A stretch of DNA of 64,000 nucleotides from a virus, in IMG/VR virus record IMGVR_UViG_3300045988_114464, positions 1 through 64,000 of that record; one strand, 5' to 3'. How positions within the stretch are numbered: the first letter of the stretch is position 1; every line of letters begins with the position of its first letter. Positions 16,200-55,604 of the stretch are shown piece by piece. Position numbers and translations under genes: made by a program. Below the pieces are notes generated by a model that worked only from the letters and a program-made list of their open reading frames with translations, was not told the DNA's origin and searched no databases.

Positions 16200-16274
16200 T
16201 GGCACAAGACTTAGGACTTTAACCTAAACGAACAGTTTTGGAGACTGTCATGCTAACAATTACATCAGTCTTGC
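16200..16274 (-). tRNA. tRNA-Trp (CCA)
   Basis: Hand-folded cloverleaf: acceptor GCAAGAC/GTCTTGT, anticodon stem ACAGT/ACTGT, loop CTCCAAA, T arm TTAGG-TTAAAGT-CCTAA, encoded CCA. Confidence 0.75.
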
Positions 16275-16277
16275 GTA

Positions 16278-16352
16278 TGGAGCGCTATGGCGTAATCGAA
16301 ACGCCATCTTCAGTTTGGAAAACTGAGGTTCTTACCATTAAACTAATAGCGC
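16278..16352 (-). tRNA. tRNA-Gly (UCC)
   Basis: Acceptor GCGCTAT/ATAGCGC, anticodon stem TCAGT/ACTGA, loop TTTCCAA, T arm GGCGT-TTCGATT-ACGCC, encoded CCA. Confidence 0.8.
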
Positions 16353-16468
16353 AAATCGCCCCGCGACCAAAAGGTACGTCATGCGCGCTTGACTTGTTTT
16401 CCACTGGGAATCGCAGTACAGTCATGGGCTAAACCGCAATAAGCGTGAACTTAACAAACGGGGAACAC

Positions 16469-16544
16469 TGGCAGGGATGGTGTGATTCGGACACACGAAT
16501 GTCGGCTTCAAAGACCGATGCCTTGACCGCTTGGCTACACCCCT
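16469..16544 (-). tRNA. tRNA-Gln (UUG)
   Basis: Acceptor AGGGGTG/CATCCCT, anticodon stem TCGGT/GCCGA, loop CTTTGAA, T arm GTGTG-TCCGAAT-CACAC, encoded CCA. Confidence 0.75.
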
Positions 16545-16701
16545 ATATTTCTCCTACGCTGACGAGACGCAGGAGAGAAATTAAATTGTATGCCGACACG
16601 TTTGAGCGTGTCTATTAAATTGTTTGTCTGCCGTACCAGACGGTGTGTGTGAGTGGAGTTTTTGCTCACGGACAATAAAATTTACCTTGTACGGAAGGCA
16701 T

Positions 16702-16777
16702 TGGTCTACCATCGCAGGCTCGAACTGCGGACTTCTTGATTAAAAGTCAAGTGCTCTACCAACTGAGCTAATGGTAG
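16702..16777 (-). tRNA. tRNA-Lys (UUU)
   Basis: Acceptor CTACCAT/ATGGTAG, D arm GCTC-AGTTGGTA-GAGC, anticodon stem CTTGA/TCAAG, loop CTTTTAA, T arm CGCAG-TTCGAGC-CTGCG, encoded CCA. Confidence 0.85.
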
Positions 16778-16945
16778 ATTTGATTGGGGCATATGCCCCA
16801 TCACTTATCGCAGATTGTAACGGTCTACACCGCGCATATTCTTCTGCATCTCAAGGTTTGCTTCATACAGACCACGGAAGAAATGCTTGATATTGCTCTT
16901 AACGCCCATTGGTTTCACTTCCTTTCTGATTACTTTAGTATTATA

Positions 16946-17575
16946 TCACATAACAACTAAGTTGTCAAGTGCTTTTTTAACTTTATTTTTCATTTCTTCT
17001 CGCTCTTTCTTAGAGTCATATCTCATGCGACAATAAGGGCGAGTGCCTTCTCTGTAATGTTTCTGCAAAATTCGTATTTGCTTATTTACCATTTCTTTAG
17101 AAACATCTAACTTATCAGCCACTTCTTGACACGTTTTACATTCTGTTAGCTTTGCGTATATGACTTTAAGCATAGCAGTCGAAGCATACTCGATAAACCA
17201 ATCAGCCCAATCTTTACCAGCAACATATTCTTCATTCTTTGCGCCACTGTCAATAACAGCTTCAAGCGGTACATCTTCATTATAGACGGTTTTAACTTCA
17301 GTGTTCAATGAAATAACACGACTATCATTGCGCTTCTTTGCTAACTGAGTGCGCTTTGCCTTTTTTACTTCATTGTGCATACAGTAATAAGCAAATGTAC
17401 TAAAGCGGTTACTGCCATCATAAGCCATACCAGCCTTGCACAAACCAATAGCACAAATGTCATACCATGTGTTGAAGTCAAGTTTATACTTTGTTAAGAA
17501 GCCGTAGATTAAATCGTGATTATCTTCGACTAATTTCTTCTGCTCAGTATTTAATTTGATATTTGGCTTGCTCAT
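16946..17575 (-). CDS. sigma-70 family sigma factor
   Basis: Region 2-like DLIYGFL...DICAIGLCKAGMAYDGSNRFSTFAYYCMHNEVKK and a region 4-like HTH TCQEVADKLDVSKEMVNKQIRILQK. Confidence 0.7.
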   Translation of the reverse strand: MSKPNIKLNTEQKKLVEDNHDLIYGFLTKYKLDFNTWYDICAIGLCKAGMAYDGSNRFSTFAYYCMHNEVKKAKRTQLAKKRNDSRVISLNTEVKTVYNEDVPLEAVIDSGAKNEEYVAGKDWADWFIEYASTAMLKVIYAKLTECKTCQEVADKLDVSKEMVNKQIRILQKHYREGTRPYCRMRYDSKKEREEMKNKVKKALDNLVVM

Positions 17576-17774
17576 AACAGTTGTTTCCTTTAGTTTGAAA
17601 TAATGGAGCGAATGACGGGTACTGCCCCCGCGTCCTCAGTTTGGGAAACTGAAATTCTACTATTGAACTACATCCGCATATGATAACAGGGAATGAGTTA
17701 GAAAGAAGGTATGTCAAAAGAAGGAGAAAAAATCTCATTCCCTGCTATTTATTTATATTTGTTATGCTTAGAAG

Positions 17775-46767: not shown

Positions 46768-47697
46768 ATGATTATGAATCCTGAACTCGTAAAGTTTGCG
46801 GCTGATTCTCAGACTGGTTTCTATGATGCTGCTATGCGCTATTTCTGCGATGGCGAAAAGACCGCAGATAACAAGGAACTAATGCACAAGGCTTTTATGG
46901 CTGAAGTAGAGCACAAGTCTCACTTTGCTCGTGAAGGTCTTGACGTTAATGCTTGGATTGGCAACCCGTCTGTTTCTTGGGCGGCAATGAGTATCGTTGA
47001 CTCCACCATCCGTGCAATTATTCCTGTGACCATTCTACCACACTTTAATCTATTTGCTGATTTCCGCACCCAAGGCTTTGGTGATATTACCAAGTTTACT
47101 ATTCAGCCACGTTCTTTCTATGTTGTTTCTAAGGGCGGTCGTGCGGAACGTACTTCTTTCCGTCAGAGAAAGTTCAATTCTGATGTTACTCTGACCCCAG
47201 AAGAGCACATTATTACTATCTTTGAGAAGATGTATAATGTACTGTCTGGTCGTGTAAACATTGCTGACTTCATGGCATGGGTAATGCTGTCTGTTCAGAC
47301 CGAGATGTACACTGACGCTCTGATTGCTCTGAACGGCGGTCTTGCTACCATTCCAAACGGTTCTCTGAATGTAAACGGCGCATTTGACATGAAAACTCTT
47401 GTTAAGATGTGCGAAACTGTTCAGTACCGTAACGGTGGCGTAAAGCCGATTATTGCTGGCTCTGCAACCGCTCTAATGAACGTACTACCAGATTCTACTT
47501 CTGGCTATCGTATGAACGTAGATGGTGAAGGCAATGGTTCTATCGAACTACTCCGCAATATTATGGGTTACACCGTAATGAAGCTGGATAATGCTGTTAC
47601 TAAGGCTGGTGAACTGATTCTGCCTGATGATAAGATTTATGTTATTAGCCCATCTCAGGATAAGCTACTGAAGGGTGACTTATGCCCTGCTTGTTAA
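46768..47697 (+). CDS. major capsid protein, exon 1 (the ORF reads on into the intron)
   Basis: 309-aa ORF in the capsid position. Its last few codons (about 47677-47697) are probably intronic. Confidence 0.55.
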   Translation: MIMNPELVKFAADSQTGFYDAAMRYFCDGEKTADNKELMHKAFMAEVEHKSHFAREGLDVNAWIGNPSVSWAAMSIVDSTIRAIIPVTILPHFNLFADFRTQGFGDITKFTIQPRSFYVVSKGGRAERTSFRQRKFNSDVTLTPEEHIITIFEKMYNVLSGRVNIADFMAWVMLSVQTEMYTDALIALNGGLATIPNGSLNVNGAFDMKTLVKMCETVQYRNGGVKPIIAGSATALMNVLPDSTSGYRMNVDGEGNGSIELLRNIMGYTVMKLDNAVTKAGELILPDDKIYVISPSQDKLLKGDLCPAC

Positions 47698-48997
47698 GTG
47701 ATTAGCAAGTATTTTGCGTTAAATGCTTTGAATCCCTAAAGCCTACAAAACTCAAACAGTAATTGGAAACGATAAGCTGTGTAGTTACGAAAGTAGAAAA
47801 AATTTGTAGGATATTCATAAGGTTAAATCCTAAGTGAATGTAAATGGGTCTTTAGCAAGGAATGTCCTAAGTATAATATTGACTATTATTGCAAAGTATG
47901 CTATAATATATTATATATGGAAAACCTTCAACGATTATCTCCTTATGGGAGAGTAGGCTACAAGCTAATGGTAGTCGAAAAATGCAACTCTTATACATTA
48001 TAAAAATTTTTAAGAAAGGAGGGAAAAATATGTTAGTCCCCAATCAATATATTACTGTTAATTGGCATCCAAGAAATAAAGTACATTTGGAAAGTAAAGG
48101 ATATATTTACACACACATTGGTCTACCTGTTCAAGTTAAAGTTGAAGATATGATGGCAGGTTCAAAATGCAGAGTAAAAGTACAATGCGATTATTGTGGA
48201 AAAATATATACCAAGGTATATAAAGATTATTTTGCTCAAAGACAAAACGGAAAAGATTGTTGCGCTAAATGTGCTTCTAAAAAGCGAGGAGAAACCAATC
48301 AAGAATTGTATGGCGGTAATGCTCCTGCTTGTTCTCCTAAAGTTGTAGAGAAAATGCAAAAATCTTGTTTAGATAAATATGGCGTTAAAGTGCCTTCTAA
48401 ATCGTCAAAGGTAAAGGCAAAAATGAGAGAAGTTAATATGGAACGATACGGTTTCCCTGTTCCATGCCAAAATCCAAGTGTACGCGCTAAATTTATTGAA
48501 ACAAATCAAAAGCGACATGGTGGTAATGGAAGTCAATGCAATCCAGAAGTTCGTAAGAAAACCATGCAATCTTTTATAAAACATGGTACGATTTGTTCTT
48601 CTGAACCAGAACGCGAAATGGTTAAAAAATTACAAAAGCTATATGGTTCTCAGAATTGCTTTCCACAATATTTGCTTGATAAAATTGTGTTTGATTGTTT
48701 GGTTATTGTTAATGGTGTCAAAATTGATGTAGAATTTGATGGAAAATATTGGCACAAAGACAAACACAAAGATATTCGGAGAGATTATTACAGTTTTTCT
48801 CAAGGATATAAAGTATTACGCTTTAGTGGGGATAACGATGCCCCTACTGAAGAGCAAATTCAACAAGGAATAGACTTTTTGGTGACAACCACTCACCGCC
48901 ATTTAATTATTGATGTATAAGATGAAGATATAATCTGGACTCATATGAAAGTATGAGAAGTTTAATTTATAGGGGATTAAACTGGACGGACGTTGCG
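47680..48997 (+). mobile_element. group I-like intron 1 carrying a homing endonuclease gene (boundaries approximate)
   Basis: Splits the capsid ORF. Its noncoding blocks 47717-47790, 47843-47876 and 47917-47982 are homologous to blocks in intron 2. Internal promoter TTGACT 47879-47884 / TATAAT 47902-47907. Confidence 0.65.
48030..48920 (+). CDS. intron-encoded homing endonuclease (Vsr/DUF559-like C-terminal nuclease)
   Basis: AAAGGAGGG SD. C-terminal KIDVEFDGKYWHKDKHKDIRRDYYSFSQGYKVLRFSG. Repeated modules of about 30 aa of the type YG..P.QNP.V..K. Paralog of 53588..54505. Confidence 0.7.
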   Translation: MLVPNQYITVNWHPRNKVHLESKGYIYTHIGLPVQVKVEDMMAGSKCRVKVQCDYCGKIYTKVYKDYFAQRQNGKDCCAKCASKKRGETNQELYGGNAPACSPKVVEKMQKSCLDKYGVKVPSKSSKVKAKMREVNMERYGFPVPCQNPSVRAKFIETNQKRHGGNGSQCNPEVRKKTMQSFIKHGTICSSEPEREMVKKLQKLYGSQNCFPQYLLDKIVFDCLVIVNGVKIDVEFDGKYWHKDKHKDIRRDYYSFSQGYKVLRFSGDNDAPTEEQIQQGIDFLVTTTHRHLIIDV

Positions 48998-49156
48998 AAT
49001 CCGTTTGAACACACTCGTGTAATGACTACAACCCTATCTAATTCTAACCAGTTCTACGATAATGCAGACCTAACTACTAACTTTACTCAGCGAGTAGAAT
49101 GGGGCTTCATGTTCGCAACTTCTGCATACGCAGGTGTCTACACTATCAACCAGTAA
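48953..49156 (+). CDS. major capsid protein, exon 2 (the true exon probably starts near 48998)
   Basis: This frame is open from 48926. The C-terminal ...NPFEHTRVMTTTLSNSNQFYDNADLTTNFTQRVEWGFMFATSAYAGVYTINQ has no SD or start context of its own. Confidence 0.5.
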   Translation: MRSLIYRGLNWTDVANPFEHTRVMTTTLSNSNQFYDNADLTTNFTQRVEWGFMFATSAYAGVYTINQ

Positions 49157-53198: not shown

Positions 53199-53417
53199 AT
53201 GGCTTCTGCTAATATTTTCACCGCTGGCCCTGCTCGTGCGCTGTTTTTCTACGGTCAGGACTTGATTGGTGTTGGTACTACTCTAAGTGATACCACTTTC
53301 GATTCTTCTATCACCGCCGAGGAAGTACGCGGTGGTCAGGGCAACCTGCTCTACGGTCAATACTTCCATGATTCTTCACTGACCGTTTCTATTACCGATG
53401 TAACTTGCATTGCTTAA
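53199..53417 (+). CDS. major tail (tube) protein candidate, exon 1
   Basis: 72-aa ORF ending just inside noncoding sequence homologous to intron 1. The protein continues in 54720..55604. Confidence 0.5.
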   Translation: MASANIFTAGPARALFFYGQDLIGVGTTLSDTTFDSSITAEEVRGGQGNLLYGQYFHDSSLTVSITDVTCIA

Positions 53418-54717
53418 TTGGTGACAATTAAGTACCGAGTGTTTAATGCTTTGAAAATGCCCTAAAGCCCTTTTACCCAAACAGTAGTTGGAAACAACAA
53501 GCTGAGTGGTTATAAAAAGTAAAGGGATTGATTTTATTGACTTTTAAGTATTATTATGATATAATATAAGAAAGGGGATGATAAAATTTGCTGTTAAAAG
53601 ATAATTTAGTTGAAATGAAATGGCATCCAACTAATAGAGTTAAATATGCAACTCGTGGTTATAAATTTACCGCTTTTGGCGAAAAGTTTTATGCAAAAGC
53701 GAGTGATGTACTTGAGTTAAGTAGTGGTGCTAAAATTCCTGTGCAATGCGATTATTGTGGCAAAATTTATTATCCTACTTCTCGTAATTATGAGAAATCA
53801 CAGTTACGAAAAGAGAAAGATTGTTGTGTTGCTTGTAAAGGTAAAGAAATTCGCGCAACCGTACAAAAGAAATATGGTGTTAATAATGTAGTAGAGTTGG
53901 ATGAAGTACGCATGAAGATGAAAGAAACTTGTCTTTCAAAATATGGTACTTCTTCTCCGCTTGAGAATAAAGAAATTTTTCAGAAAACACAAGATAGTTT
54001 TAATTCTCATTATGGAACAGAAAACGGTATTAAAGATTTGCGTTCTGTTCCAGAAATTGCTACAAGAATTGAGAATACTAATATTTCTAAGTATGGTGGC
54101 AAAGCACCAATATGCTCTTCTAAAATTAGGAACAAAATCAACCAAACAATGTATGAAAACGGAACTTGCAAAACTTCAGAAAAACAACTGTTATTGAATC
54201 AAATGGTAATTGATTTATACGGTAATTCTGAGTTGAATTATCCTTGCGATAAAGTGTCTTTGGATTGCATGACGATTGTCAATGGAATTAAAATTGACAT
54301 TGAATATGATGGTTGGTATTGGCATAAAGACAAACAAGAAGAAGATAAGCGCAGAGATTTCTTTGTAGAGTCTAAAGGTTATAAAGTTATTCGCTTTATA
54401 GCTTATGAAAACAGACTCCCTACCGAAGAAGAATTACGCAACGCAATTCATAAAATTACAACAACAAGTAGAAAATTTACTAAAGTCAAATTAAATAAAA
54501 TCTAATGGGTAGTTTAGCAGGGAAAGTCCTAAGTCTATAAAGATATGGAAAACCCCCAACGACTATCTCTTGGCGAGAGAGTAAGCTACAAGCTAATGGT
54601 AGCTGAAAAATCCTCCCCTCTTTGTAGAGGTGAACAAATAGTCTGAACATCTATCGAAAAGATAGAGCAGTTCTTTAAGAACGGCATAGGGAGTTGCGTC
54701 CTTATGTGAACATATTG
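53406..54717 (+). mobile_element. group I-like intron 2 carrying a homing endonuclease gene (boundaries approximate)
   Basis: Blocks 53441-53515, 54506-54540 and 54545-54612 are homologous to intron 1. Internal promoter TTGACT 53537-53542 / TATAAT 53560-53565. The endonuclease gene sits between block i and block ii, unlike in intron 1. Confidence 0.65.
53588..54505 (+). CDS. intron-encoded homing endonuclease (paralog of 48030..48920)
   Basis: MLLKDNLVEMKWHPTNRVKY parallels MLVPNQYITVNWHPRNKVHL. C-terminal KIDIEYDGWYWHKDKQEEDKRRDFFVESKGYKVIRF. Confidence 0.7.
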   Translation: MLLKDNLVEMKWHPTNRVKYATRGYKFTAFGEKFYAKASDVLELSSGAKIPVQCDYCGKIYYPTSRNYEKSQLRKEKDCCVACKGKEIRATVQKKYGVNNVVELDEVRMKMKETCLSKYGTSSPLENKEIFQKTQDSFNSHYGTENGIKDLRSVPEIATRIENTNISKYGGKAPICSSKIRNKINQTMYENGTCKTSEKQLLLNQMVIDLYGNSELNYPCDKVSLDCMTIVNGIKIDIEYDGWYWHKDKQEEDKRRDFFVESKGYKVIRFIAYENRLPTEEELRNAIHKITTTSRKFTKVKLNKI

Positions 54718-54719
54718 CA

Positions 54720-55604
54720 ATGTTTAATCTTCAGTACGTTGCCGCAAACCTTGGTGTAAACCTTGAGCAAGGCGGTCTATCCGTAACTGAAGAAGAACTA
54801 ACTGTTGGCGCAGTTGGTGGCGCAGTAACACTAACTAACAAGCCAATCGCATTCTCTGGTTCTTATATCGGCTGGTATAAGAAGCCTTCTGACGCTGATT
54901 GGACTATTGGTACTATTGACGCTGACCAGAAGAAGATGAATATTGCTGGTGCAAAGGAAAATGAGCACTATTGTGTTAAGTATTTCTATCAGAATGAGAA
55001 CGCTAAGTCTATTACTATTAAGGCTCAGTTCGTTCCAAAGGTGCTACACCTTGTTCTGATTAACGACCTATTCTCTGGTTCTACCGCTGATGTAGCGGCT
55101 TCTACTTCTAAGTATGGTCGTCTAATTACCGATATTCCTCAGTTCCAACTCGATGGCGCACAAAATCTGGCATGGGCGGCAGCTTCTGCGGCAACCGTTT
55201 CTCTGTCTGGTAAGGCACTGGCATATTCTGATACCGAGTCTTGCGAAGTAGACCCAGTATACGGTACTATGACTCAAGAGATTTTTGGCGCTAAGTGGCA
55301 GGATGATGTTGTAGCACTCGCTTGCGAGAACGCTGAGATTGACCTTGCTGAATCTGGTACTGAAACTCTGATTGTTCGTGCGGTATTCGGTGGCGCAATT
55401 GCTTCTCAGCGCAAGGAAAACTCCAACTTTACCTTTGCTATTGTAGATGCCCCTGCTTCTACTGCAACTGGTACTACTGTTGGTGCTAATACTGGTATTG
55501 TAACTGCTGGTACTACTGCTGGCACTGCTGTAATTTCTATTACACTTACCAATTATCCGAACGTACCACCCGCATACGCTACCGTAACCGTAACTGTTGG
55601 TTAA
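54720..55604 (+). CDS. major tail (tube) protein candidate, exon 2, with C-terminal Ig-like domain
   Basis: This frame is open from 54690. (M)FNLQYVAANLG... and the C-terminal FTFAIVDAPASTATGTTVGANTGIVTAGTTAGTAVISITLTN...ATVTVTV look Big_2-like. Confidence 0.5.
   Translation: MFNLQYVAANLGVNLEQGGLSVTEEELTVGAVGGAVTLTNKPIAFSGSYIGWYKKPSDADWTIGTIDADQKKMNIAGAKENEHYCVKYFYQNENAKSITIKAQFVPKVLHLVLINDLFSGSTADVAASTSKYGRLITDIPQFQLDGAQNLAWAAASAATVSLSGKALAYSDTESCEVDPVYGTMTQEIFGAKWQDDVVALACENAEIDLAESGTETLIVRAVFGGAIASQRKENSNFTFAIVDAPASTATGTTVGANTGIVTAGTTAGTAVISITLTNYPNVPPAYATVTVTVG

What the first reader, a model, noticed from the sequence alone, without database searches (positions are those of the whole stretch)
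46768..49156. Major capsid gene split by a group I-like intron carrying a Vsr/DUF559-like homing endonuclease
The capsid-position ORF ends at 47697. A 297-codon endonuclease gene follows. Then a 67-codon ORF with no SD supplies a plausible capsid C-terminus ending in ...AGVYTINQ. The roughly 330 nt before the endonuclease gene and 80 nt after it are noncoding and share three conserved blocks with the insertion in the tail gene. Those shared blocks must be intronic, so they limit the splice sites. The 5' splice site lies at about 47676-47690 and the 3' splice site at or just after GTTGCG (48992-48997). I could not fix the exact junction by eye.
Basis: partly seen in the sequence, partly recalled or inferred. 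Interest (0 to 1): 0.7.

Follow-up and report, generated by a model that had tools for sequence, protein, structure and literature searches.

The report
Self-splicing intron splits phage capsid gene
The major capsid gene of this gut phage is interrupted by a 1.3-kb mobile group I intron that carries its own homing endonuclease; this is a known kind of element, but it belongs to a rare ribozyme lineage that appears to splice one base upstream of the usual site.

Summary
The 3' splice site was misplaced by 20 nt.

- **Host gene.** Exon 1 (46768-47675) and exon 2 (49018-49156) join into a 348-aa capsid protein. AlphaFold/Foldseek of its 97%-identical homologue P0001 gives an HK97 fold. The spliced ORF is colinear, without gaps, with about 300 intron-less homologues of 346-350 aa. 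The closest is 97% identical, and its DNA reads AAAGGGTGTAATG across the junction.
- **Intron.** It spans 47676-49017 (1342 nt). It has a td-like IA2 group I architecture: P1-P9.2, with P7.1/P7.2 and a P5abc-like extension. In 19 relatives, 96.5% of cells pair and 34 of 45 pairs show compensatory changes. Rfam RF00028 stays below threshold (25.9 bits).
- **Endonuclease.** The gene (48030-48920) lies in the P8 loop. It is an EDxHD/Vsr-like enzyme, like I-Bth0305I.
- **GUUGCG.** This is the conserved P9.2 loop, not the 3' splice site.
- **Family.** More than 50 of 65 viral-contig loci matching a family-core pattern carry the intron, at 3 or more capsid sites and 6 tail-tube sites.
- **Splice-site shift.** Restoring the reading frame requires splicing after a G. 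The wobble U is then the first intron base. This was shown experimentally for group B IStrons, whose ribozyme is 79% identical to an ORF-less family member.

Verdict: a new member of a known kind.

The parts
46768..47675 (+). Capsid gene exon 1: 302 codons plus the first two bases (GG) of Gly303.
   Evidence: ORF list. Alignment to intron-less homologues ends at ...SQDKLLKG. DNA comparison with the intron-less allele L006. The spliced ORF has the same length as the L006 gene, 1047 nt.
47676..49017 (+). Group I intron, IA2/td-like of the group B IStron ribozyme type, 1342 nt. It starts with the U of the U.G wobble and ends with the terminal G. By this locus alone the boundaries could also be 47677-49018.
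   Evidence: Homologue-defined gap. Covariation of P2, P3, P7, P7.1, P7.2, P8 and P9. RNAalifold gives P4, P5, P5a-c, P6 and P6a. Sub-threshold RF00028 hit on J8/7-P7-P9. The family-wide U...G rule. Published precedent in PMC4227781.
47672..47688 (+). P1. Exon AGGG (47672-75) plus intron U47676 pair with the internal guide GCCCU (47684-88). U47676.G47684 closes a 7-nt loop. Part of that loop (47680-83) together with G47684 can pair with UGUAA (49018-22) as P10.
   Evidence: Read from the sequence. The same layout appears in the family members listed. P10 pairing follows the loop sequence in 11 of 13 junctions read by eye.
47688..47711 (+). P2 hairpin: UGCUUGUUAA, loop GUGA, UUAGCAAGUA.
   Evidence: All 10 pairs show compensatory changes; 98% of cells pair (helix 1).
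47714..47720 (+). P3 5' strand UUGCGUU. It pairs with AAUGCAA at 47981-47987.
   Evidence: Long-range helix; 4 of 7 pairs compensatory, 97% paired (helix 2).
47722..47927 (+). P4-P6 domain. It contains P4 UGCU/AGCA; P5 CCC/GGG; P5a 47742-49/47803-10; two GAAA-capped hairpins (47762-73, 47785-96) and an A-rich stretch; a receptor-like hairpin (47813-39); and P6/P6a (47858-75/47912-27).
   Evidence: RNAalifold consensus of 14 members; 17 of 32 pairs compensatory. Coordinates.
47879..47907 (+). Promoter-like site in the P6a loop: TTGACT, 17 nt, TATAAT with an upstream TG (11 of 12 matches). It lies about 120 nt upstream of the endonuclease gene.
   Evidence: Consensus scan. The same motif sits just 5' of the second endonuclease gene at 53537-53565 and is retained in ORF-less relatives. 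Its function is inferred.
47928..47987 (+). J6/7 and P7 5' strand (UCAAC GAUUAU, 47928-38); P7.1 (47939-51); P7.2 (47956-76); P3 3' strand (47981-87).
   Evidence: helices 3-5. P7 varies as GAUUAU/AUAAUC, GACUAU/AUAGUC and GAAUAU/AUAUUC. Coordinates.
47990..48921 (+). P8: CUUAUAC (47990-96) pairs with GUAUAAG (48915-21). The endonuclease gene fills the P8 loop, and its stop codon lies inside the 3' strand.
   Evidence: helix 6 (5 of 5 pairs compensatory). Coordinates.
48030..48920 (+). Homing endonuclease gene, 296 aa. N-terminal region with a Cys cluster (CDYC...CxxC), central YG repeats (DUF7487), and a C-terminal EDxHD/Vsr-like nuclease domain (DUF559). The Shine-Dalgarno sequence AAGGAGG is at 48016-22.
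   Evidence: Pfam DUF7487 (5.6e-15) and DUF559 (1.2e-6). PHROG 12131, homing endonuclease. Profile hit to 3R3P, I-Bth0305I, E 8e-4. D233, E235, D237, H242 and D248 are invariant in 12 relatives.
48922..49017 (+). J8/7 and P7 3' strand (AUGAAGAUAUAAUC, 48922-35); P9 (48940-57, GAAA loop); P9.1 (48960-82); P9.2 (48986-49004, with GUUGCG in its loop); 3' tail UUGAACACACUCG ending in the terminal G49017.
   Evidence: Rfam alignment of the J8/7-P7-P9 consensus. helix 7. The tail is conserved in relatives. It is homologous to the validated 3' end of the phage K lysK intron.
49018..49156 (+). Capsid gene exon 2: the third base of Gly303, 45 codons (VMTTTLSN...VYTINQ) and the stop codon.

Best explanation
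**What it is.** The HK97-fold major capsid gene is interrupted at codon 303 by a mobile, self-splicing group I intron of the IA2 (td-like) class.

**How it works (splicing inferred, not shown here).**
- The pre-mRNA folds into the P1-P9.2 ribozyme.
- Exon bases AGGG pair with the guide GCCCU.
- Guanosine-initiated transesterification removes 47676-49017.
- The result is AAG GG|U GUA AUG, a 348-aa capsid protein.

**Mobility (inferred).** The P8 loop holds a gene for an EDxHD/Vsr-like homing endonuclease. It has its own ribosome-binding site and probably its own promoter in the P6a loop. The enzyme is expected to cut intron-less capsid alleles of co-infecting relatives, so the intron is copied in by repair. 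Relatives that differ only in having or lacking the intron fit this.

**Lineage.** The ribozyme belongs to the same lineage as group B IStrons. The last exon base is G, and the U of the conserved U.G wobble is the first intron base. In that lineage this shift has been shown by RT-PCR.
For: 1. **Single-ORF homologues.** 308 homologues were found; all but a few of those listed are 342-351 aa, and 12 aligned ones cross the gap without an insertion. The junction reads ...KLLKG|VMTT.
2. **Colinearity.** The spliced ORF has exactly the length of the intron-less gene in L006, at 94.7% nt identity and with no gaps.
3. **Capsid identity.** An AlphaFold model of the 97%-identical homologue P0001 (pLDDT 78) matches only HK97-fold capsids and encapsulins among the 50 listed top hits. 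The homologue in Enterocloster phage PMBT24 is annotated as major capsid protein.
4. **RNA structure.** Of 45 proposed pairs, 96.5% of cells pair, against about 40% when partners are slid. 34 pairs show compensatory change, and 0 of 500 shuffles reach this. An independent RNAalifold run gives the P4-P6 domain.
5. **Rfam.** The model aligns the J8/7-P7-P9 consensus GAUGAAGAUAUAAUCUG.
6. **Endonuclease.**
7. **Splice-site rule.**
   - Every family junction examined (about 15 distinct introns at 9 insertion sites) is compatible with an intron of the form U...G preceded by an exon G.
   - Five informative codons restore the conserved residue only that way: ITD|A, W|A, LIGV|G, LLG|R and SKG|A.
   - PMC4227781 reports the same shift and proves it for BcISt1.
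   - An ORF-less family member is 78.8% identical to the IStron ribozyme of phage c-st.
Against: - No RNA data were available, so splicing itself is inferred.
- RF00028 does not reach its gathering score, even for ORF-less relatives (25.9-33 bits against 50).
- At the capsid locus the sequence GUG is repeated at both junctions. The exact bond therefore cannot be fixed from this locus alone.
- The canonical rule (cleavage 3' of the wobble U) would predict 47676|47677. A related, validated intron (phage K lysK) is canonical.
- The wobble pair is conserved, and is even replaced by C.A in two lineages. One would expect that of the true cleavage-site pair.
- Endonuclease activity and promoter use are untested.
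Confidence: 0.9

Rival explanations
1. It is the same intron, but with canonical chemistry at the 5' end. Cleavage occurs 3' of the wobble U (47676|47677) and the 3' splice site is one base after the conserved G (49018|49019). The capsid protein would be identical. In other members the junction codon would change.
For: The U.G pair is universal at group I 5' splice sites. It is conserved here, and two lineages replace it with the isosteric C.A. The related phage K lysK intron is canonical. P10 pairing fits this register equally well.
Against: - The intron would end in U, C or G rather than the universal G, while the base before it is G in every junction read (12 tallied by hand).
- Conserved Ala, Gly and Arg residues would become Val, Val and Cys at five independent sites.
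- Intron-less alleles read GCA where this model needs GUA.
- BcISt1 was shown experimentally to splice after G (PMC4227781).
Confidence: 0.07
2. There is no splicing. The capsid protein is made as two separately translated polypeptides (309 aa and 67 aa), with a free-standing endonuclease gene inserted between them.
For: Both pieces are open reading frames, and the second begins with an ATG.
Against: - The second ORF has no ribosome-binding site.
- Its first 22 codons are conserved as RNA (P9.1, P9.2 and tail) in introns that sit in unrelated genes.
- Nearly all listed homologues are single ORFs; the shorter ones inspected are N-terminally short calls or genes cut by a family intron.
- Relatives are split at other positions by the same element.
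- The flanks form a covarying ribozyme.
Confidence: 0.01
3. The intron is decayed and no longer splices, so the capsid gene is a pseudogene in a defective prophage or a misassembled contig.
For: RF00028 is below threshold. No expression data were available.
Against: - Every core helix is intact in the window copy, and the endonuclease keeps all invariant catalytic residues.
- Between the window and L006, exon 2 has 26 nucleotide differences but only 4 amino-acid changes, so it is under purifying selection in frame.
- The same intron at the same site occurs in two further assemblies, L001 and L004.
Confidence: 0.02

Closest known systems
Group B IStron ribozymes: BcISt1 of Bacillus cereus, and CbISt3/CbISt4 of Clostridium botulinum phage c-st (Tourasse et al. 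2014, PMC4227781)
   Same: - IA2 ribozyme with P7.1/P7.2 and P9.1/P9.2.
- Inserted after GG-ending sites (AGGG, UGGG, GAGG).
- The last exon base is G, and the U of the U.G pair is the first intron base, directly followed by a loop.
- 78.8% nucleotide identity between an ORF-less family member and the c-st element.
   Different: - There is no IS607 transposase module. The passenger here is an EDxHD homing endonuclease, in P8 or in the P5 extension, or there is no ORF at all.
- The 3' ends read ...UCG, ...UUG or ...AGG rather than the reported CGG.
- The hosts are phage capsid and tail-tube genes at fixed, conserved sites, as expected for homing rather than transposition.
Phage T4 td and Staphylococcus phage K lysK introns (IA2, td-like)
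   Same: P1-P2 layout: GGGU, a loop, GCCCUG, then a GUGA- or GUA-capped P2. The J8/7-P7 consensus and the P9.2 plus 3' tail are shared. A homing endonuclease ORF sits in a peripheral loop, and the introns lie in phage protein-coding genes (the td sequence is from my own knowledge).
   Different: - td and lysK splice canonically after the U (for lysK).
- Their endonucleases are GIY-YIG (I-TevI) or HNH, not EDxHD.
- The family here has a large P5abc-like extension with GAAA loops and receptor-like motifs.
I-Bth0305I, the prototype of the EDxHD homing endonuclease family (Taylor et al. 2011, PMC3239194; PDB 3R3P)
   Same: It has a C-terminal Vsr-like catalytic domain with the E/D/H/D motif. It has an N-terminal repeat region thought to bind DNA. 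It is encoded inside a phage group I intron; there the ORF interrupts P5, as in the window's tail-tube intron.
   Different: Similarity is weak outside the catalytic core (E 0.067 with the single sequence, 8e-4 with the profile). The proteins here add a Cys-cluster N-terminal module and 3-7 YG repeats (DUF7487). The target is a capsid gene, not recA.
Capsid and tail gene introns of Cluster J mycobacteriophages (LittleE, BAKA; PMC3706429) and of lactococcal phage Tuc2009
   Same: Group I introns interrupt the major capsid gene and a tail gene of related phages, and the two introns share sequence. One carries an endonuclease gene. Splicing was shown by RT-PCR.
   Different: The ribozyme lineage is unrelated. 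The exon ends canonically in U. The endonuclease is LAGLIDADG-like or HNH-like and lies on the opposite strand.

Membership tests
Group I intron (Rfam RF00028) | Covariance-model score at or above the curated gathering score (50 bits). | tested here: not met
   25.9 bits (E 4e-4 in the 1.65-kb search) for 48822-48957. 26.4 bits for the tail-tube intron. 33 bits for an ORF-less relative. The model covers IA2 introns with large insertions poorly, so this lowers the formal call but not the structural one.
Group I intron | A conserved core of paired regions P3-P8, with the long-range helices P3 and P7 forming the double pseudoknot, plus P4-P6. | tested here: met
   P3 (7 bp) and P7 (6 bp) are long-range helices with compensatory changes. 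P8, P4, P5 and P6 are present. 96.5% of cells pair, against about 40% when partners are slid.
Group I intron | The intron ends in G (the terminal guanosine), and there is a conserved G-C pair in P7 for guanosine binding. | tested here: met
   G49017. G occupies this position in every family junction read (12 tallied by hand). The first P7 pair is G-C in 19 of 19 sequences. Binding itself was not tested.
Group I intron | The 5' exon ends in U, which pairs with G of the internal guide. | tested here: not met
   Frame restoration puts the U.G pair one base inside the intron, so the last exon base is G47675. At this locus alone the result is ambiguous. The same exception is documented for group B IStrons (PMC4227781).
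Group I intron | Guanosine-dependent self-splicing. | not testable with these tools
   No RNA or biochemical data were available.
Subgroup IA2 (td-like) | Extra hairpins P7.1 and P7.2 between P7 and the 3' strand of P3, and an extended P9 with P9.1 and P9.2. | tested here: met
   P7.1 has 4 of 4 pairs compensatory and P7.2 has 6 of 6. P9.1 and P9.2 were read from the sequence and are conserved in relatives.
Group B IStron | An IA2 ribozyme inserted after a GG-ending site, with the 5' splice site shifted by one base. | tested here: met
   Targets are AGGG, UGGG, GGGG, GAGG, GUGG (one site, GAUG, does not end in GG). For the shift. Identity to the c-st element is 78.8%.
Group B IStron | An IS607-type transposase module (ORF A/ORF B) fused to the 3' part of the intron. 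| tested here: not met
   The only ORF is an EDxHD endonuclease. No transposase is present. This is therefore a relative of the ribozyme, not an IStron.
EDxHD homing endonuclease | A Vsr-like catalytic domain with conserved E, D, H and D residues. | tested here: met
   DUF559 scores 28.7 bits against a cutoff of 20.6. The profile hits 3R3P at E 8e-4. D233, E235, D237, H242 and D248 are invariant.
EDxHD homing endonuclease | Site-specific cleavage of the intron-less allele next to the insertion site. | not testable with these tools
   Only indirect support: close relatives occur with and without the intron.
HK97-fold major capsid protein (Pfam PF27364, YonB) | An HK97 fold, and a position in the head module. 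| tested here: met
   All 50 listed Foldseek hits are phage/satellite/GTA capsids or encapsulins, all HK97-fold, with probability 1.0. The precomputed Pfam family is YonB. A YonD_N protein lies upstream. The local Pfam copy gave no hit.

The most novel reading that the evidence does not exclude
The window's introns belong to a large, undescribed branch of the group B IStron ribozyme lineage. This branch travels with EDxHD homing endonucleases instead of IS607. It has colonised at least nine conserved sites in the capsid and tail-tube genes of roughly 100-kb phages from human-gut and other metagenomes. All members cleave 5' of the wobble U. If that holds, the one-base shift is a stable, widespread property of a ribozyme lineage and not a peculiarity of transposon chimeras. 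The endonuclease-free members of about 380-450 nt (for example L043 and L013) would then be compact substrates for working out how a group I ribozyme chooses a bond next to the wobble pair rather than after it.
Probability: 0.7. Interest if true: 0.55.

Novelty: new member of a known kind. Interest (0 to 1): 0.42.

Why it matters
- **Annotation.** Gene callers truncate this capsid at 309 aa, and they truncate many relatives in the same way. Protein clusters such as P0065 (307 aa, 58 members) are such truncations. The correct product is 348 aa.
- **Biology.** The locus links three things that have been described separately: capsid and tail introns in phages, EDxHD homing endonucleases, and the shifted 5' splice site of group B IStrons.
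- **Scale.** This ribozyme lineage is common in uncultured phage contigs, many from one large metagenome dataset, whose nearest isolates infect gut Clostridia, and it has invaded many sites in two essential structural genes.
- **Open question.** The lineage supplies small natural substrates for an open mechanistic question: how the 5' splice site is selected one base upstream of the U.G pair.
- **Limit.** It does not reveal a new kind of element.

Tried and rejected
Joining 47694 or 47676 to 48998 gives a protein with 13 or 7 extra residues that no aligned homologue has.
2. **Fully canonical splicing.** I enumerated every combination of a 5' site after a U and a 3' site after a G near the junctions. 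None restores the homologue sequence. Using the wobble U together with the conserved terminal G adds one base and runs into a stop codon (capsid: AAG GGU UGU AAU GAC ... UAA). This holds for all family members examined.
3. **Programmed frameshifting or hopping** to absorb the extra base. Rejected, because no uniform rule works across sites.
4. **Rfam.** The gathering threshold gave nothing for the intron. The permissive mode gave only the 3' third. ORF-less relatives also stay below threshold.
5. **Local Pfam** scans of the capsid and tube proteins gave no family. The names YonB and YomU_Tube come from precomputed annotation.
6. **Exact look-up** of the spliced capsid and of both candidate tube proteins found nothing, so no transcript-derived evidence was obtained.
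7. **Near-identity search** of the locus in the phage collection found only a 190-nt intron match in an unannotated faecal contig.
8. **A local GCUUU/AAAGC hairpin** as an alternative to P4 was considered. The columns are invariant, so it cannot be tested. RNAalifold prefers P4 UGCU/AGCA.
Full report
**1. What is in the sequence**

The region holds three ORFs on the + strand.
- 46768..47697 is 309 aa.
- 47982/48030..48920 is 296 aa from the ATG at 48030. That ATG is preceded by AAGGAGG at 48016-22, and it matches the ML(K/V)xNQ start of relatives.
- 48953..49156 is 67 aa and has no ribosome-binding site.

The first ORF matches PHROG 4088 over profile positions 4-286 of 332, so about 46 positions are missing. 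The middle ORF matches Pfam DUF7487 and DUF559, and PHROG 12131 "homing endonuclease".

**2. The host gene is one gene, and it is the major capsid gene**

- A search with the joined exons returned 308 homologues. Nearly all of those listed are single proteins of 342-351 aa that cover 98-100% of the query.
- Twelve of them, including one 97% identical (P0001), align straight across the gap as ...SPSQDKLLKG|VMTTTLSNSN.... They lack the 13 residues (DLCPACNPFEHTR) that my first guess at the junction had included.
- The DNA of the intron-less allele (L006) reads CTACTAAAGGGTGTAATGACC.
- Splicing 47675 to 49018 gives an ORF of exactly the same length as the L006 gene (1047 nt), with 94.7% nucleotide identity and no gaps. 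In exon 2 there are 26 nucleotide differences but only 4 amino-acid changes, so exon 2 is translated in this frame.
- An AlphaFold model of P0001 (mean pLDDT 78) matches only HK97-fold capsids and encapsulins among the 50 listed top hits.
- The nearest isolated phages are the roughly 100-kb Enterocloster bolteae phages (36-39% identity). In PMBT24 the homologue is annotated as major capsid protein.
- Precomputed Pfam names place the module with Bacillus SPbeta-like structural genes: YonB for the capsid, YonD_N upstream, and YomU_Tube for the downstream split gene.

**3. The insertion is a group I intron**

Rfam's RF00028 does not reach its gathering score. It scores 25.9 bits for 48822-48957 (E 4e-4 in the local search), and it aligns the J8/7-P7-P9 consensus GAUGAAGAUAUAAUCUG...GAAA. 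A second sub-threshold hit (26.4 bits) lies in the downstream gene.

I therefore tested the structure comparatively.
- A conserved core pattern (TGCTTTGAA N1-5 CCCTAAAGC) matched 65 loci in viral contigs; about 50 of them show the family's 5' layout, and the rest look like chance matches in coding sequence.
- For 19 distinct members I aligned the guide-P2-P3 segment, the P7-P7.1-P7.2-P3'-P8 segment, and the P8'-J8/7-P7'-P9 segment. I then counted a hand-drawn structure on that alignment.
- 96.5% of cells form standard pairs, against 37-44% when the partners are slid by 1-3 columns.
- 34 of 45 pairs show changes on both sides, and none of 500 shuffles reaches the observed values.
- This includes the long-range helices P3 (UUGCGUU 47714-20 with AAUGCAA 47981-87) and P7. 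P7 occurs as GAUUAU/AUAAUC, GACUAU/AUAGUC and GAAUAU/AUAUUC.
- An independent RNAalifold run on the middle segment of 14 members predicted P4, P5, a covarying P5a, two GAAA-capped hairpins, a receptor-like hairpin, and P6/P6a. 17 of 32 pairs were compensatory.
- P7.1/P7.2 and P9.1/P9.2 place the intron in the IA2 (td-like) class.

**4.

- GUUGCG is the conserved loop of P9.2 (ACGGA/UCCGU, 48986-49004).
- After it comes a further conserved single-stranded tail: UUUGAACACACUCG here, UGUGAACAUAUUG in the tube intron, and similar in relatives.
- The 3' splice site is after G49017, 20 nt downstream of GTTGCG.
- The stop codon at 47695, and the residues DLCPAC before it, are intron (P1 loop, guide and P2).

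**5. The exact bond, and a one-base oddity**

P1 is td-like. Exon AGGG plus U47676 pairs with GCCCU (47684-88). The U.G wobble closes a 7-nt loop, and P2 follows directly.

The canonical rules conflict here.
- Cleavage after the wobble U, combined with ligation after the terminal G, would leave one base too many.
- The capsid message would read AAG GGU UGU AAU GAC ... UAA, which ends in a stop.

I found the same conflict in every family member whose junction I could define with intron-less capsid or tube proteins. These cover three sites in capsid genes (W|A, SKG|G, KG|V) and six in tube genes.

Only two readings restore the frame:
- the intron is U...G and the last exon base is G; or
- the 5' site is canonical and the 3' site lies one base after the G.

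The second would give Val, Val, Val, Cys and Val.
- The intron-less tube allele reads GAC GCA ATG.
- W71 and A72 are invariant in 26 capsids.
- The base before the variable one is G in every junction read (12 tallied by hand).
- It corresponds to the terminal G of the phage K lysK intron. That intron shares the P1/P2 layout and the 3' tail, and it is canonical (ACGGGU|AAAUAAAUUGCCCUG ... AAUAAUCG|GAUGGA).

An unrelated group I intron in the tube gene of L018 is also fully canonical under the same analysis. The method is therefore not biased towards a shift.

**6. The oddity is already described**

Tourasse et al. 2014 (PMC4227781) report the following for group B IStrons (BcISt1, and CbISt3/4 of Clostridium botulinum phage c-st, among others).
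- The last exon base is G.
- The U belongs to the element.
- The U-G pair is shifted by one base pair relative to the splice site and is directly followed by a loop.
- RT-PCR shows that BcISt1 splices after a G.

The family here has the same target motif and the same P1 layout. An ORF-less member is 78.8% identical (E 5e-38) to the c-st element, which is followed there by IS transposase genes.

I therefore place the capsid intron at 47676-49017. At this locus GUG occurs at both junctions, so the mature mRNA and protein are the same under either reading.

One observation remains unexplained. The wobble is replaced by C.A in two lineages (L042/L059 and L048). This suggests that the pair is still under selection for wobble geometry, even though it lies 3' of the cleaved bond.

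**7. The endonuclease and mobility**

- The 296-aa protein has an N-terminal Cys cluster, central YG repeats (DUF7487) and a C-terminal DUF559 domain.
- A profile of 12 family members hits the catalytic domain of I-Bth0305I (3R3P) at E 8e-4. D233, E235, D237, H242 and D248 are invariant.
- That enzyme is the prototype of the EDxHD family and cuts next to its intron's insertion site (PMC3239194).
- The gene sits in the P8 loop. Its last codons and its stop codon form the 3' strand of P8.
- In the tube intron the paralogue (36% identity) sits in the P5 extension instead, immediately before the P5 3' strand.
- Both introns carry an 11/12 match to a sigma-70 promoter with an extended -10 (47879-47907 and 53537-53565). 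ORF-less relatives keep it. Its use is inferred.
- Close relatives occur with the intron at the same site (L001, L004) and without it (L006). That fits recent gain or loss.

**8. Comparison and verdict**

Introns in phage capsid and tail genes, including related introns in the two genes, are already known: Cluster J mycobacteriophages, and Tuc2009 (PMC3706429). EDxHD endonucleases and the shifted splice site are also known. What is new:
- their combination;
- the size of this family in uncultured phage contigs;
- the number of sites it occupies in two structural genes.

I rate the finding as a correct call of an ordinary kind of element, with a wrong 3' boundary. It is a new member of a known kind. 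The added interest comes from the splice-site shift, which remains mechanistically unexplained.

Noticed in passing
window 53401-54717 (exons 53199-53400 and 54718-55604): There is a second intron of the same family, 1317 nt, in the tail-tube gene (PF27173, YomU_Tube). It splits Asp67|Ala68 as GAU G|CA. Its 305-aa EDxHD endonuclease gene (53588-54505) sits in the P5 extension, not in the P8 loop as in the capsid intron.
   Followed up: yes
window 47879-47907 and 53537-53565: Both introns contain a near-consensus sigma-70 promoter (TTGACT, 17 nt, TATAAT, with an upstream TG). In the capsid intron it lies in the P6a loop. In the tube intron it lies directly 5' of the endonuclease gene. ORF-less relatives (L019, L033) keep the P6a copy.
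   Followed up: partly
L035 (IMGVR_UViG_3300045988_139345), minus strand, family core motifs at reverse-strand offsets 8727 and 9977: Two introns of the family lie in one tail-tube gene, separated by a micro-exon of only 10 nt (AUAUCAGAGG).
   Followed up: partly
L042/L059 and L048, 5' junctions: The U.G wobble next to the splice site is replaced by C.A: GGG C ... A CCC. These are two independent double changes that keep wobble geometry. That is unexpected if the pair lies inside the intron.
   Followed up: partly
L076 (Clostridium phage c-st, AP008983.1 126364-130376): A 79%-identical ribozyme core is followed by IS transposase genes OrfA and OrfB. This is presumably one of the two c-st IStrons (CbISt3/CbISt4) published by Tourasse et al.; which one was not checked. 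Staphylococcus (Silviavirus, Kayvirus) and Enterococcus myophages also hold cores that are 70-77% identical.
   Followed up: partly
L005 6008-7280 (289-kb IMG/VR contig 3300035498_000877): Three group I introns lie in tandem within 1.3 kb. RF00028 scores 34.6, 38.1 and 55.2 bits.
   Followed up: no
window 16203-17677, minus strand: A cluster of five tRNA genes (Rfam tRNA, 49-69 bits).
   Followed up: no
window 47762-47839 and 47858-47927: The P4-P6 domain has two GAAA-capped hairpins, an A-rich stretch, and two motifs resembling the 11-nt GAAA tetraloop receptor (UAAGG/UAUGG ... CCUAAG). P9 also ends in GAAA. This points to tertiary contacts of the P5abc type, which would be unusual for an IA2 intron.
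   Followed up: no
L033 1211-1323: A drum RNA (RF02958) scores above its gathering score (52.9 bits) in a related phage contig.
   Followed up: no
Protein clusters P0065 (307 aa, 58 members) and P0076 (300 aa): These database 'proteins' are capsid genes truncated by family introns. P0065 ends ...KLVKG+NKIAA, read from the intron. P0076 begins with intron-derived ...NPCEHIA before AFAIID.
   Followed up: yes
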